64,000 nucleotides of DNA, taken from Escherichia coli (GTDB lineage Bacteria > Pseudomonadota > Gammaproteobacteria > Enterobacterales > Enterobacteriaceae). Location: NCBI RefSeq assembly GCF_001677475.2, contig NZ_CP015229.1. The stretch is one strand, 5' to 3'. This document shows positions 24,001 through 30,000 of this stretch, in pieces; position 1 is the stretch's first letter; each line of letters opens with the position of its first letter. The position numbers are program-made.

Positions 24001-27000
24001 ATGCTCTGCATGAAGCGGACTCTGGTGAGGGTGTCATCTTCTTAACCGATATAGCCGGAGCGCCACCGTACCGCGTGGCTTCATTATTAAGTCACAAACA
24101 CTCCCGTTGCGAAGTGATTTCTGGTGTCACGTTACCGTTAATTGAACAGATGATGGCTTGCCGTGAAACCATGACCAGTTCAGAGTTTCGCGAACGTATT
24201 GTCGAACTGGGTGCGCCGGAGGTGAGTAGTCTTTGGCACCAGCAACAAAAAAATCCGCCTTTCGTCCTCAAACATAATTTGTATGAGTATTAACCCGCGA
24301 TTCTGATGGCGCTTTTGCTACAATAAAAGCGTTGTTTCACCCTCGGTTATTTTTTCATGTACAAACAAGCTGTTATTCTCCTGCTGATGCTGTTTACCGC
24401 AAGCGTCAGTGCCGCATTACCTGCCCGTTATATGCAAACCATCGAAAATGCCGCGGTCTGGGCGCAAATTGGCGACAAGATGGTGACCGTGGGGAATATT
24501 CGGGCCGGGCAAATCATTGCCGTGGAGCCCACTGACGCAAGTTATTACGCATTTAATTTTGGCTTTGGTAAAGGGTTTATCGATAAAGGGCATCTCGAGC
24601 CGGTTCAGGGGCGACAAAAAGTTGAAGATGGTTTGGGTGACCTCAACAAGCCGCTGAGTAATCAGAACTTAATTACCTGGAAAGATACGCCGGTCTACAA
24701 CGCGCCGAGTGCGGGCAGTGCGCCGTTTGGGGTACTGGCGGACAATTTGCGCTACCCAATTTTGCATAAACTGAAAGACAGGTTAAATCAAACCTGGTAT
24801 CAGGTCCGTATTGGCGATCGACTGGCCTATATCAGCGCGCTGGATGCCCAACCCGATAATGGCCTGCCGGTGCTAACCTATCACCATATTTTGCGCGATG
24901 AAGAAAACACCCGTTTTCGCCATACTTCGACGACCACCTCGGTACGCGCTTTCAATAACCAGATGGCCTGGCTGCGCGACAGGGGATACGCGACACTGAG
25001 CATGGCGCAGCTGGAAGGTTACGTGAAGAATAAGATCAATCTCCCTGCGCGAGCGGTGGTGATTACCTTTGATGATGGCCTCAAGTCGGTGAGCCGCTAT
25101 GCGTATCCTGTGTTGAAACAATATGGCATGAAGGCGACGGCGTTTATTGTTACCTCGCGCATCAAACGTCACCCGCAGAAGTGGGACCCAAAATCTCTGC
25201 AATTTATGAGCGTTTCTGAACTTAACGAAATTCGCGATGTATTTGATTTCCAGTCACATACCCATTTTTTGCATCGGGTGGATGGTTATCGCCGACCCAT
25301 ATTACTGAGCCGTAGTGAGCACAATATTCTGTTTGATTTTGCACGTTCACGCCGCGCTCTGGCGCAATTTAATCCGCATGTCTGGTATCTTTCGTATCCG
25401 TTTGGCGGATTTAATGACAAAGCCGTGAAGGCAGCAAAAGAAGCCGGATTTCACCTGGCGGTGACAACCATGAAAGGCAAAGTAAAACCGGGGGATAATC
25501 CGTTGTTACTAAAACGACTTTATATCTTAAGAACGGATTCGCTGGAGAAAATGTCGCGGCTGGTGAGTAACCAGCCGCAGGGGTGATTATCAGGCAACCT
25601 GTACCGGAATCGCTTTCGCGGTACGTTTCATTTCGTTGTCGCCTTCAAAATAGGCGACGTTGGGCCGCCAGGTGCGAGCTTCTTCATCTGGCATGGTAAC
25701 GAAGCTGGCGATGATGACAATATCGCCGACGCTGGCGCAGTGGGCCGCCGCACCGTTAACGGAAATAATTCTCGAACCGCGTTCTGCCGCGATGGCATAG
25801 GTGGAGAAACGCTTGCCGTTGGTCACATTCCAGATATCAATGGCTTCGTTTTCGAGAATACCAGCTGCGTCAAGAAAATCCTGGTCAATGGCGCAAGAAC
25901 CTTCATAGTGCAGGTCCGCATGAGTCACTTTCACGCGGTGGAGTTTGCCCTGCAGCATCGTGCGAATCATAACTTCTACCTTTCTACCCTGTCGTTAACG
26001 AAGCAGGCGATGCCTGCTTTGAGGAAATTCTCACGCAGTATTGCCCGATTTTTGTTTAGTGTCTACTCATCTGACGGCATTTGCATCAGCAGTTTGCGTA
26101 CCGTGCCGAAGCGTGCCATGTAACGCCTGTAACCAATTGAAATTTCTCTGAACGCTGCTCGGTAAACACTAAAGAGGCGGCTGACGACGGCGCGCCTTGA
26201 CTGGATACTGCCTTCACGCAAGACAACACAGAAGGCAGGGAAGATGGATGCACCGAGTACCACACCGCATGATGCGGTATTTAAACAATTTTTAATGCAT
26301 GCGGAAACGGCTCGTGACTTTCTGGATATCCATTTGCCAGCGGAGCTACGCAAACTGTGTGACCTCGACACGCTGCATCTTGAGTCGGGGAGTTTTATTG
26401 AAGAAAGCCTGAAAGGGCACAGCACTGACGTGCTCTATTCCGTGCAAATGCAGGGTAATCCCGGTTATTTGCATGTGGTGATTGAACATCAAAGCAAGCC
26501 GGATAAGAAAATGACCTTTCGCATGATGCGCTATGCCATTGCCGCCATGCACCGGCATCTGGAGGCGGATCACGATAAGCTGCCGCTGGTGGTGCCGATT
26601 CTGTTTTATCAGGGCGAGGCCACACCTTATCCGCTCTCAATGTGCTGGTTTGATATGTTTTACTCGCCGGAGCTGGCGCGACGCGTCTATAACAGTCCTT
26701 TTCCGCTGGTGGATATCACTATCACACCGGATGACGAAATCATGCAGCACCGGCGGATTGCGATTCTCGAACTACTGCAAAAGCATATTCGCCAGCGCGA
26801 CTTAATGTTATTGCTGGAGCAACTGGTCACGCTGATTGACGAAGGGTACACTAGCGGAAGTCAGTTAGTTGCCATGCAAAACTATATGCTGCAACGCGGT
26901 CATACTGAACAAGCGGATTTGTTTTATGGTGTGCTGAGAGACAGGGAAACGGGAGGGAAGTCTATGATGACGCTGGCGCAGTGGTTTGAAGAGAGGGGAA

Positions 27001-30000
27001 GACAGGAGGTAAGACTGGCGGTGAGACAGGAGGTAACACAGGAAGTAAGACTGGAAGTAAGTCAAGAATTCGCCCAGCGTCTTCTGAGTAAAGGAATGTC
27101 TCGGGAAGACGTTGCAGAGATGGCAAATTTACCTCTTGCTGAGATTGATAAGCTGAGTAATTAAGTTGTCGGTATTATCAGTTATAGCCAGATAATTGTT
27201 ATTGTTAACTGACCAGATAATTAAGGGAACCTATGGACATAAAGACACGGAGAGAAACCAGGCAGACGTTGGCGCAGTGGTTTGAAGATAAGGGAAGACA
27301 AGAGGTAAGACAGGAATGCGCCCTGCGTCTTCTGAGTAAGGGGATGCTTCGTGAAGACGTTGCAGAGATGGCAAATTTATCTCTTGATAAGCTGATTAAC
27401 TAAGTTACCTGCGATATGAATAATCGCTTACAGACGTCATCGCCATGACGTGGGCAAATGAATAACTGGCGCCATCAGCCGTAGCGCCAGTTAAATATTA
27501 CGCCAGCTCGACCATTTTGTTGTCGATCAGGCGAGCGTCGCCAAGCCAGGCGGCTACCAGAATCACGGCGCGTTTGCTGTTTTCAGTGACTTCCAGCAAC
27601 GTGTCAGCATCACGAATCTGAATATCATCGGCGCGGAAACCTTTTTCATTCAGTTCTTGCCCTGCAATAGCAATAATCTCATCAAGATCCCGCTCTCCAG
27701 CCTGCAATTTGTCTGCAATCGAACATAAAACCTTGTACATACCGGGCGCAATTTTGCGTTGTTCTGCCGTCAGATAACCGTTACGAGAACTGAGCGCCAG
27801 GCCGTCTTTGGCGCGCATAATTGGCACACCGACAATCTCAATATCAAAGCCCATATCGGCAACCATTTTGCGGATCAGCGCCAGTTGCTGAAAATCTTTT
27901 TCACCGAAGCAGGCGATGTCCGGCTGGACAAGGTTGAACAACTTGCTAACGATGGTCGAAACGCCGCGAAAATGTCCCGGACGGCTGGCACCTTCCAGCA
28001 TGGTGGAAAGACCGGGAACATCAACATAGGTGTGGGTTTCTGTACCGTTCGGGTAGATCTCTTTTACTGATGGAGCGAAAACCAGATCCACTTTACGTTT
28101 GTTTAGCTTCTCGCAGTCTTCCTGCAAGGTGCGTGGATAGCGAGCCAGGTCTTCCGGGCGGTCGAACTGCATCGGGTTAACGAAAATACTGACGACGACC
28201 ACATCGGCGCGGGCTTTGGCTTCATCGACCAGCTTCATATGGCCATCGTGTAGATTACCCATGGTAGGCACCAGCGCCACACGCTTGCCTTCCATACGCA
28301 GGCGGCGGATTTGCTGACGCAGCAGCGGCAGAGTTTCGATAATTAACACAACGTGACTCCTTAATGGAAACTGTGTTCTTCGCCCGGATAAGCGCCGGAC
28401 TCCACTTCAGCCATATACTGCCGTACAGCAGCGCGGATGTCTCCCGCTTCGGCAAGGAAATTTTTGGCGAATTTAGGAATGTGGCCGCCGGTAATGCCGA
28501 ATGCATCGTGCATCACGAGGATTTGCCCATCGGTAACATTCCCCGCGCCAATACCGATAACCGGAATCGCCAGCGCCTCGGTAATACGTTTTGCCAGCTC
28601 AACCGGTACGCATTCCAGCACCAGCAACTGTGCCCCAGCGGCTTCTAAAGCTAAGGCGTCATTAAGTAAACGGTCGCCTGCATCGCCACGCCCTTGCACT
28701 TTATAACCACCGAAAATATTCACTGACTGTGGCGTTAAGCCCAAATGCCCACAAACAGGAACTGCGCGTTCGGTCAGCATTTGAACTGTTTCTACCAGCC
28801 AGGCACCGCCTTCGATTTTGACCATATTCGCACCCGCGCGCATGACAGTTGCGGCGTTTTCAAATGCTTGTTCAGGAGTGGCATAAGCCATAAATGGCAG
28901 GTCAGCCAGCAGCAGACAGTTTGGCGCACCGCGACGAACGGCGGCAGTGTGGTAGGCGATATCTTCCACAGTGACAGGGAGGGTGGAGTCATGACCCTGA
29001 ACCGTCATTCCAAGGGAATCCCCCACCAGCATGACGTTAATTCCTTCGTCGGCAAACAATTTTGCAAAGCTATAGTCGTAAGCAGTGATGGTGGCGAAGC
29101 GTTTTTTTTCCTGTTTACATTTTTGCAGCAGGGAAATGGTAGTTGGTTTCATAACGTGTCCTGATGGCTAATGTCAGATCTGTTGGCATTCTATCAGTCG
29201 TATTAAGGGGGGCAATCGTTTTAGTGGGTCACATCGTCAGTTGCCTGACGATGTGTTTGGCTTGTCAAGGGTAGGTAATCTGGAATCTGCCGGTGGCTTC
29301 GAAATCGCCTGCTTTAATCGTACTATTCCCGTCTTGCTTCAATGTCGCCTGAAATTCAAGGGGCTGTGTTGTGCCTTGACCTTTTCCGGGGTAAATTCCC
29401 CCTGATGAATCAATCTCGCTTTCATACGCTTTATAAACAGACGTTCCTACATTAGGCTCAAGAACCATTTTTCCATTAACACTGTTTTTTAAGCCTTCAA
29501 TAAGTACGCCGACGCCCTCTGCTGCACCGTTACCTTGCAGAGTATTGGCGAGTAACTTTTTATTCTGTTGCCCTATTTTTGCAGAGGTCATTTTGGTTTC
29601 AATATTTTGTACTCGAATACAGTTTTGCAATGTTATCTGAAAAGGCACAGGCGTTGCGCCATTTTTAATTTGACTGACTTCGTAGCTCCCCAGTGCGACA
29701 GTTGAGTTCTGGACGGTATCTCCTGTTACAACTGAAGAAAAACATGTAGGAAGCGATAGTTTTACATTACTTAAATTAAAGTTGATATAGATAGGTCCGC
29801 TGTATCCCTGGATACCTGCACCAGCGTCTTCGGCTTTAAAACGATAAATATAATCACTTGTGCTCAGTAATGTGATATTTTGGGTTGCTGTAGGCGCAAA
29901 CGTGGCATCTGTATAAAATTCAACGGTAAAAGTCTGGAATATTCCTCCTAACCCCCAAAATTGTGGATAGTTATTATCCATGTCTTTACATCTTCTTTCC

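What the first reader, a model, noticed from the sequence alone, without database searches (positions are those of the whole stretch)
26964..27403. RpnC C-terminal domain is partly duplicated as a free-standing small ORF; possible intragenic and extragenic small-protein partners
The last 66 codons of rpnC begin at an in-frame ATG-ATG (26964) preceded by a strong GGGAGGG Shine-Dalgarno sequence, and contain the repeat RQEVRLAVRQEVTQEVRLEV. About 70 bp downstream, 27233-27403 encodes a 56-aa protein (MDIKTRRETRQTLAQWFEDKGRQEVRQ..DVAEMANLSLDKLIN) that is a diverged, repeat-shortened copy of that same C-terminal segment, with its own ribosome-binding site. Rpn-family nucleases are reported to carry hypervariable C-terminal domains, and small proteins made from within the 3' region have been reported to antagonise the full-length nuclease. 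A second standalone copy suggests cassette-like diversification or an extra modulator.
Basis: partly seen in the sequence, partly recalled or inferred. Interest (0 to 1): 0.65.

Follow-up and report, generated by a model that had tools for sequence, protein, structure and literature searches.

The report
Known RpnC antitoxin and its downstream copy
The small gene inside the end of rpnC and its shortened free-standing copy just downstream are both real, but they are the RpnC_S antitoxin and "RpnC_Ss" second copy already described for E. coli in 2023, so this is a correct but ordinary finding.

Summary
There is an in-frame ATG-ATG at 26964 behind a GGGAGGG Shine-Dalgarno, a 12-nt (4-aa) repeat array in the rpnC tail, and a 56-aa ORF at 27233-27403. 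That ORF is a diverged copy of the tail (59% identity, E = 3e-20), shorter by 16 aa and by 3 aa.

It is not new. Zhong et al. (PNAS 2023, PMC10400941) showed that RpnC_S is translated from this internal start in K-12 and neutralises the full-length nuclease. [quoted passage not shown] RefSeq names it "RpnC/YadD family protein". The exact 56-aa protein is in GenBank.

The rpnC-Ss spacer occurs in 1,555 of 5,426 complete E. coli genomes. In 15 of 15 sampled loci the ORF is open, with in-frame indels only. The predicted fold best matches the RpnA-S crystal structure.

Two modest additions:
- The Ss repeat block never has the same length as the RpnC tail in the same genome (7 allele combinations). 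By the published repeat-matching rule, Ss is probably not the cognate antitoxin.
- One E. coli strain carries a clean rpnC::Ss-tail fusion, which supports the cassette reading.

Low interest; already known.

The parts
26244..27164 (+). rpnC (RpnC_L), a 306-aa Rpn-family PD-(D/E)XK nuclease and the toxin component
   Evidence: ORF. TIGR01784 scores 273 bits against a cutoff of 52.1. PF04754 is recorded on the identical protein in other assemblies. Orthologous to E. coli rpnC between panD and panC.
26951..26957 (+). Shine-Dalgarno GGGAGGG for the internal start
   Evidence: Read directly. The same motif lies before the ATGATG in K-12 and in all loci that matched the start-site pattern.
26964..27164 (+). 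rpnC_S, the intragenic 66-aa antitoxin frame (ATG-ATG start, same frame as rpnC)
   Evidence: The K-12 orthologue was shown to be translated and to block RpnC_L (PMC10400941).
26999..27061 (+). 12-nt (4-aa) tandem repeat array, 5.2 copies, in helix 1 of the tail
   Evidence: The repeat block between WFEE(K/R) and the conserved (A/V)(L/Q)R(L/F)L motif is 9 to 37 aa long across strains.
27168..27264 (+). Spacer absent from K-12. It holds a CCAGATAATT direct repeat (27188-27197, 27213-27222), the AAGGGA ribosome-binding site (27223-27228), and the first 11 codons of Ss
   Evidence: A probe overlapping it (27150-27275) is 93-95% identical in 1,555 of 5,426 E. coli genomes, and its 3' ~90 nt are nearly invariant in the aligned loci. 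No significant homology to rpnC upstream sequence.
27233..27403 (+). rpnC_Ss, a free-standing 56-aa paralogue of RpnC_S with a 9-aa repeat block against 25 aa in the resident tail
   Evidence: Annotated in other E. coli as 'RpnC/YadD family protein'. The exact protein is in GenBank. The three-helix model best matches PDB 7TH0.
27463..27493 (.). G+C-rich hairpin between rpnC_Ss and the convergent panC; a likely terminator shared by both
   Evidence: Terminator scan on the minus strand and inverted repeat I3. Conserved in K-12.

Best explanation
This is the RpnC toxin-antitoxin and antiphage module of Escherichia in its three-part form. Full-length RpnC_L (26244-27164) is a PD-(D/E)XK DNA endonuclease. 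RpnC_S is made from the internal start at 26964, in the same frame. It is a three-helix protein that pairs with the identical tail of RpnC_L through its long first helix and blocks the nuclease. The number of 4-aa repeats in that helix sets pairing specificity. The ORF at 27233-27403 is rpnC_Ss, a paralogue that arose by duplication of the tail-coding segment. The duplication is old and shared with about 29% of E. coli. In this genome its helix-1 repeat block is 16 aa shorter than the resident tail. I therefore infer that Ss is not the cognate inhibitor of the neighbouring RpnC_L. Its main evolutionary role would be as a spare tail: homologous recombination between the TLAQWFE-coding segments of S and Ss deletes the resident tail and spacer. 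In one step that yields a new RpnC_L with a matching new intragenic RpnC_S. Shown: the sequence anatomy, orthology, population frequency, fold similarity and a natural fusion. Taken from the literature on K-12: translation of S and neutralisation of L. Inferred: that Ss is expressed here, that it is non-cognate, and that it acts as a cassette.
For: Anatomy and significance of the duplication. Published description of RpnC_S, of rpnC_Ss, of the repeat-number specificity rule and of N-terminal domain-rpnSs fusions: PMC10400941. Internal SD-ATGATG identical to K-12. RefSeq annotation as 'RpnC/YadD family protein'. Spacer present in 1,555 of 5,426 complete E. coli genomes. Ss ORF open in 15 of 15 sampled E. 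coli loci, with a conserved ATG and ribosome-binding site, and five length classes that are all multiples of 3. Repeat-block length of S against Ss unequal in all 7 allele combinations (25/9, 25/15, 9/17, 33/19, 29/15, 25/19, 37/13 aa). AlphaFold model with helices 6-35, 40-46 and 51-55, mean pLDDT 72.5. Best PDB fold match 7TH0 (E. coli RpnA-S), TM 0.85, rmsd 0.9 A. Natural fusion in strain AHM8C212RI: a single-copy rpnC keeps the SMM start, and its tail and 3' flank equal the Ss of CP53-type strains, with the spacer gone.
Against: No expression data exist for rpnC_Ss in any strain; the 2023 paper tagged only RpnE_Ss (YpaA). A simple sigma-70 consensus scan found no plus-strand promoter upstream of S or Ss. 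Ss evolves fast (pN/pS 0.69, against 0.37 for S and 0.06 for the nuclease domain). That fits relaxed constraint as well as diversifying selection. The non-cognate inference extrapolates from one published experiment (plus or minus one KGIE repeat in K-12 RpnC). A single-copy fusion allele could in principle be an ancestral pre-duplication state, although its tail matches a present-day Ss allele exactly. Foldseek E-values are not significant for so small a domain, and the model confidence is only moderate.
Confidence: 0.85

Rival explanations
1. RpnC_Ss is a working second antitoxin, or dosage modulator, of the neighbouring RpnC_L. It binds the RpnC_L tail despite the shorter helix and adds an independently regulated layer of repression.
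For: Ss has the same three-helix fold as RpnA-S. The residues flanking the repeat block (TLAQWFE, LLSKGM.REDVAE) are invariant between S and Ss. The analogous RpnE_Ss (YpaA) is synthesised in K-12 (PMC10400941). The spacer upstream of Ss is strongly conserved.
Against: Changing the repeat number by a single unit abolished neutralisation of RpnC_L by RpnC_S (PMC10400941). S and Ss repeat blocks differ in length in every genome sampled, here by 16 aa and in some strains by a number that is not a multiple of 4. Most E. coli Ss also carry a different repeat type (FQKG) from the resident tail (RQEV).
Confidence: 0.25
2. The 56-aa ORF is a decaying remnant of a segmental duplication with no function of its own. 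It remains an open frame only because it is short and the duplication carried no stop codon.
For: pN/pS is 0.69. The ORF is absent from about 71% of complete E. coli genomes. It has been lost by IS3 insertion and by fusion. The allele here is the shortest seen and has an extra 3-aa deletion. There is no Pfam or PADLOC match and no consensus promoter. PGAP calls some copies pseudogenes.
Against: The frame is open in 15 of 15 sampled E. coli loci and in this lineage, with 11 distinct alleles and only in-frame indels, including non-repeat indels of 6, 6 and 9 nt. The ATG, the ribosome-binding site and the ~60 nt upstream of them are almost invariant, and the spacer probe is 93-95% identical between lineages that differ by about 9% at panC-panB. 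The PGAP 'pseudogenes' are intact ORFs. The identical allele persists in at least 62 contigs.
Confidence: 0.2

Closest known systems
E. coli RpnC_L / RpnC_S intragenic toxin-antitoxin (Zhong et al., PNAS 2023, PMC10400941)
   Same: Same locus (panD-rpnC-panC). Same nuclease family. Identical internal SD-ATGATG context. Same tail architecture with 12-nt / 4-aa repeats. Same predicted three-helix fold.
   Different: The allele here has six RQEV-type units (66-aa S), against the KGIE/KGIQ-type block in K-12 (60-aa S). The host lineage is about 9% diverged from E. coli at panC-panB. Nothing differs in kind.
[quoted passage not shown] 2I; RefSeq name 'RpnC/YadD family protein')
   Same: Same position. 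Spacer probe 93-95% identical. Same start context, M(E/D)IKTRRETRQTLAQWFE. Same C-terminal core.
   Different: This allele is the shortest seen (56 aa against 65-71 aa). It has RQEV-type rather than the usual FQKG-type repeats, and it lacks 3 aa (AEI) near the C-terminus.
YpaA / RpnE_Ss downstream of rpnE in E. coli K-12
   Same: A free-standing copy of an Rpn tail immediately downstream of its parent gene. The protein was shown to be made.
   Different: An independent duplication of a different paralogue; according to the paper each Ss clusters with its own parent. Not orthologous to the ORF here.
RpnA-S crystal structure, PDB 7TH0
   Same: Best structural match of the Ss model: three-helix bundle, TM 0.85, rmsd 0.9 A over 43 columns.
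   Different: Only 23% sequence identity. It was not found by sequence search of the PDB. RpnA-S has no long repeat block.

Membership tests
Rpn_L/Rpn_S intragenic toxin-antitoxin | Full-length protein is an Rpn-family (YhgA-like, PF04754 / TIGR01784) PD-(D/E)XK nuclease | tested here: met
   TIGR01784 E = 3.3e-81, 273 bits against a cutoff of 52.1. PF04754 is recorded on the identical 306-aa protein.
Rpn_L/Rpn_S intragenic toxin-antitoxin | In-frame internal start codon with a ribosome-binding site ahead of the variable C-terminal tail | tested here: met
   GGGAGGG, then 6 nt, then ATGATG at 26964. The same motif precedes the start in K-12, where the site was validated (PMC10400941).
Rpn_L/Rpn_S intragenic toxin-antitoxin | Tail varies between strains by 4-aa (12-nt) repeats in the first helix | tested here: met
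   12-nt unit in 5.2 copies. The block is 9-37 aa long across 12 alleles.
Rpn_L/Rpn_S intragenic toxin-antitoxin | Internal promoter giving a short transcript for S | tested here: inconclusive
   The consensus sigma-70 scan found no plus-strand site inside rpnC. The paper reports such start sites from dRNA-seq in K-12, and the 130 nt upstream of the internal start are nearly invariant.
Rpn_L/Rpn_S intragenic toxin-antitoxin | S is translated separately and neutralises L | not testable with these tools
   Shown for the K-12 orthologue only (PMC10400941).
RpnSs free-standing tail copies (rpnC_Ss) | Separate ORF immediately downstream of the rpn gene, homologous to that gene's own tail | tested here: met
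   59% identity, E = 3e-20. DNA 85-90% identical over 50 and 97 nt. Starts 68 nt after the rpnC stop.
RpnSs free-standing tail copies (rpnC_Ss) | Orthology with the E. coli rpnC_Ss locus | tested here: met
   The spacer and Ss 5' end are 93-95% identical in 1,555 E. coli genomes at the same locus. Aligned alleles are shown.
RpnSs free-standing tail copies (rpnC_Ss) | RpnS-type three-helix bundle fold | tested here: met
   Model helices 6-35, 40-46 and 51-55, mean pLDDT 72.5. Top PDB match 7TH0 RpnA-S, TM 0.85, prob 0.95. Model confidence is moderate.
RpnSs free-standing tail copies (rpnC_Ss) | Protein is synthesised | not testable with these tools
   Indirect support only: open frame and in-frame indels in all sampled loci, with a conserved start.
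Pfam DUF4351 (PF14261), the label for some free-standing RpnS genes | Significant match to the Pfam model | tested here: not met
   No Pfam domain with E <= 0.001. The paper says this label applies only 'in some species', so it does not define rpnC_Ss.

The most novel reading that the evidence does not exclude
RpnC_Ss is not a redundant antitoxin. It is a deliberately off-register 'archived tail' with a repeat block always of a different length from the resident RpnC tail. Recombination can swap it onto rpnC, replacing the toxin's specificity helix and its intragenic antitoxin together in one step. That would make it a two-cassette diversification device for a defence nuclease under phage pressure. 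While free-standing, it might also titrate RpnC_S or a phage-encoded mimic.
Probability: 0.3. Interest if true: 0.45.

Novelty: already known. Interest (0 to 1): 0.15.

Why it matters
Rpn nucleases are widespread toxin-antitoxin-type antiphage systems in which the antitoxin is a gene within the toxin gene. Confirming the arrangement in one more Escherichia lineage adds nothing fundamental. The only open point is what the free-standing copy does. Its repeat number never matched the neighbouring toxin in the genomes sampled, and a natural tail swap exists. Together these make the reservoir idea, already hinted at in the 2023 paper, directly testable.

Tried and rejected
- **Species identification by pattern scan.** I scanned one genome per species for the conserved Ss 5' segment. 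The only hit was a short MAG contig labelled Oscillospiraceae that carries E. coli-type rpnC-Ss and is probably contamination. The source species remains undetermined. panC-panB is at best 90.8% identical to complete E. coli genomes, while GenBank labels the identical proteins E. coli.
- **Origin of the spacer.** I tested whether the 97-nt spacer is a diverged continuation of the duplication, which would carry the rpnC internal promoter and start site. In-register similarity is no better than shuffles (496 of 1,000 reach it). The best local alignment is out of register and borderline (8 of 500). Not supported.
- **PDB sequence search** with S and Ss found only designed helical repeats, not RpnA-S. 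The relationship is visible only at fold level.
- **Pfam and PADLOC** gave nothing significant for Ss.
- **Rfam** gave no credible RNA family in 25900-27600.
- **Promoter scan** gave no plus-strand site for S or Ss.
- **Supplementary files** of the 2023 paper are not held, so its Figs S3C and S6 could not be compared with my S/Ss repeat table.
- **Follow-up literature** on RpnSs: none found.
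Full report
**What is there.** The window carries panD (25590-25970, minus strand), a 306-aa ORF at 26244-27164 (plus), a 56-aa ORF at 27233-27403 (plus), and the convergent panC (27498-28349, minus). The 306-aa protein is an Rpn-family nuclease: TIGR01784 scores 273 bits against a cutoff of 52.1. It lies where rpnC (yadD) lies in E. coli.

Codon 241 is ATG at 26964, followed by a second ATG. 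GGGAGGG sits 6 nt upstream.

The 56-aa ORF aligns to the last 66 aa of RpnC at 59% identity, E = 3e-20, with a 16-aa gap and a 3-aa gap. At DNA level the two copies are 26969-27167 and 27265-27406, at 85-91% identity. Weaker similarity runs about 25 nt past each stop codon.

**It is already described.** Zhong et al. (PNAS 2023; PMC10400941) report four things:
- All five E. coli K-12 rpn genes have an internal translation start that yields a small RpnS protein. The evidence is Onc112 and retapamulin ribosome profiling plus SPA tagging, and it includes RpnC_S.
- RpnS proteins block the toxic full-length RpnL nuclease.
- The tails vary between strains by 4-aa repeats. An RpnC_S neutralises RpnC_L only if both have the same number of repeats.
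[quoted passage not shown] They name it rpnC_Ss. [quoted passage not shown]

The SD-ATGATG context in this window is identical to that in K-12. RefSeq's PGAP annotates the downstream ORF in many E. coli genomes as "RpnC/YadD family protein". The exact 56-aa sequence is in GenBank (for example ANO87289.1, named "transposase") on 62 contigs. In four other assemblies the whole rpnC-Ss interval differs by 0-1 nt out of 1,254.

**How common and how conserved.** A probe across the rpnC-Ss spacer (27150-27275) matches 1,555 of 5,426 complete E. coli genomes at 93-95% identity, always on the chromosome. K-12 lacks it.

I fetched 15 E. coli loci that carry Ss. In all of them the Ss frame is open. The start context M(E/D)IKTRRETRQTLAQWFE, the AAGGGA ribosome-binding site and the 60 nt upstream are almost invariant. 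The 11 distinct alleles fall into five length classes (168-213 nt), all multiples of three. Copies that PGAP flags as pseudogenes "missing N-terminus" are intact ORFs.

Ss evolves quickly. Its pN/pS is 0.69, against 0.37 for the S tail and 0.057 for the nuclease domain.

The window itself is not typical E. coli. panC-panB is at best 90.8% identical to any complete E. coli genome. The spacer and the 5' end of Ss are therefore better conserved than the flanking housekeeping genes.

**Fold.** An AlphaFold model of the 56-aa protein, built on a 14-sequence alignment of S and Ss alleles, has a long helix (residues 6-35) and two short helices (40-46, 51-55), with mean pLDDT 72.5. Its best match among solved structures is 7TH0, E. 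coli RpnA-S: TM 0.85 normalised to the target, rmsd 0.9 A over 43 columns, probability 0.95. The E-value is weak, as expected for a domain this small. Sequence-only searches of the PDB, Pfam and PADLOC do not recognise Ss. Only the C-terminal end of TIGR01784 matches, below its cutoff.

**Two things beyond the main text of the paper.**
1. The repeat block between WFEE(K/R) and the conserved (A/V)(L/Q)R(L/F)L motif never has the same length in S and Ss of one genome. The window has 25 aa against 9 aa. The E. coli combinations are 25/15, 9/17, 33/19, 29/15, 25/19 and 37/13. Most E. coli Ss alleles use FQKG-type units while the resident tail uses RQEV-type. The window's Ss is RQEV-type. Given the published plus-or-minus-one-repeat rule, Ss is unlikely to be the cognate inhibitor of its neighbour. 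This is inference, not a test.
2. A search with the FQKG-type block found 1,386 genomes, almost all with the block in the free-standing ORF. In strain AHM8C212RI, however, a single-copy rpnC keeps the SMM internal start, and from TLAQWFE onward its tail is identical to the Ss of CP53-type strains, with a 3' flank that differs at only 1 of about 100 nt. The original tail and the spacer are gone. This is the product expected from recombination between the homologous 5' segments of S and Ss. It replaces the toxin's tail and its intragenic antitoxin together.

**Most likely mechanism.** RpnC_L is the nuclease toxin. RpnC_S, made from 26964, is its cognate antitoxin and pairs through helix 1. rpnC_Ss is an old paralogue of the tail. 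It is probably expressed, is out of register with the resident tail, and serves mainly as a donor for tail replacement. The rivals are a genuine second modulator and a decaying remnant. Both remain possible and are scored in the report sections. None of the functional steps for Ss has been shown experimentally in any strain.

**What led nowhere.**
- The spacer shows no significant in-register homology to the rpnC segment upstream of the internal start, so whether Ss inherited the internal promoter cannot be said.
- A consensus promoter scan found nothing on the plus strand for S or Ss.
- No Rfam family matches.
- The one-genome-per-species scan did not identify the source species.
- The paper's supplementary figures are not held.
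- No later paper on RpnSs was found.

**Verdict.** The feature is the published RpnC_L / RpnC_S / RpnC_Ss arrangement, already annotated in RefSeq, so novelty is "already known" and interest is low. The residual question of what the off-register free-standing copy does is modestly interesting and directly testable.

Noticed in passing
window 27498-29152 (panC-panB) and 27150-27275: panC-panB is at best 90.8% identical to any of 5,426 complete E. coli genomes. The window therefore comes from a non-coli or cryptic Escherichia lineage, although GenBank labels the identical RpnC and Ss proteins E. coli. The rpnC-Ss spacer is 93-95% identical to E. coli, better conserved than the flanking housekeeping genes. 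That suggests either constraint or exchange of the module between lineages.
   Followed up: partly
window 27188-27197 and 27213-27222: A perfect direct repeat, CCAGATAATT, occurs twice 25 nt apart just upstream of the Ss ribosome-binding site. It is invariant in all sampled E. coli loci and is a candidate promoter or operator element for Ss.
   Followed up: no
L023 (NZ_CP104613.1, E. coli AHM8C212RI) 549-1451: A natural rpnC::Ss-tail fusion. The single-copy rpnC has a tail identical to, and a 3' flank nearly identical to (1 nt differs), the free-standing Ss of CP53-type strains, and the spacer is deleted.
   Followed up: yes
L017 (NZ_OZ546911.1) 1230-2318: An IS3-family transposase sits directly after the rpnC-Ss spacer, and no Ss ORF is found in the stretch fetched. 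This would be another route of Ss loss.
   Followed up: no
L004, L008, L015 (Ss ORFs at about 1184-1393): PGAP marks these Ss copies as pseudogenes ('incomplete; missing N-terminus'), or names them 'transposase' or 'hypothetical protein'. The ORFs are intact with a conserved ATG. The annotation is inconsistent because the model expects a full-length Rpn protein.
   Followed up: yes
L018 (CALXDF010000219.1, MAG labelled Oscillospiraceae): A 4.3-kb MAG contig carries an E. coli-type rpnC tail plus Ss, with proteins identical to those of E. coli CNR20180903. It is probably a mis-binned Escherichia contig.
   Followed up: partly
window 27463-27493: A 10-bp G+C-rich inverted repeat between Ss and the convergent panC, conserved in K-12. 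It is a likely shared, bidirectional terminator.
   Followed up: no
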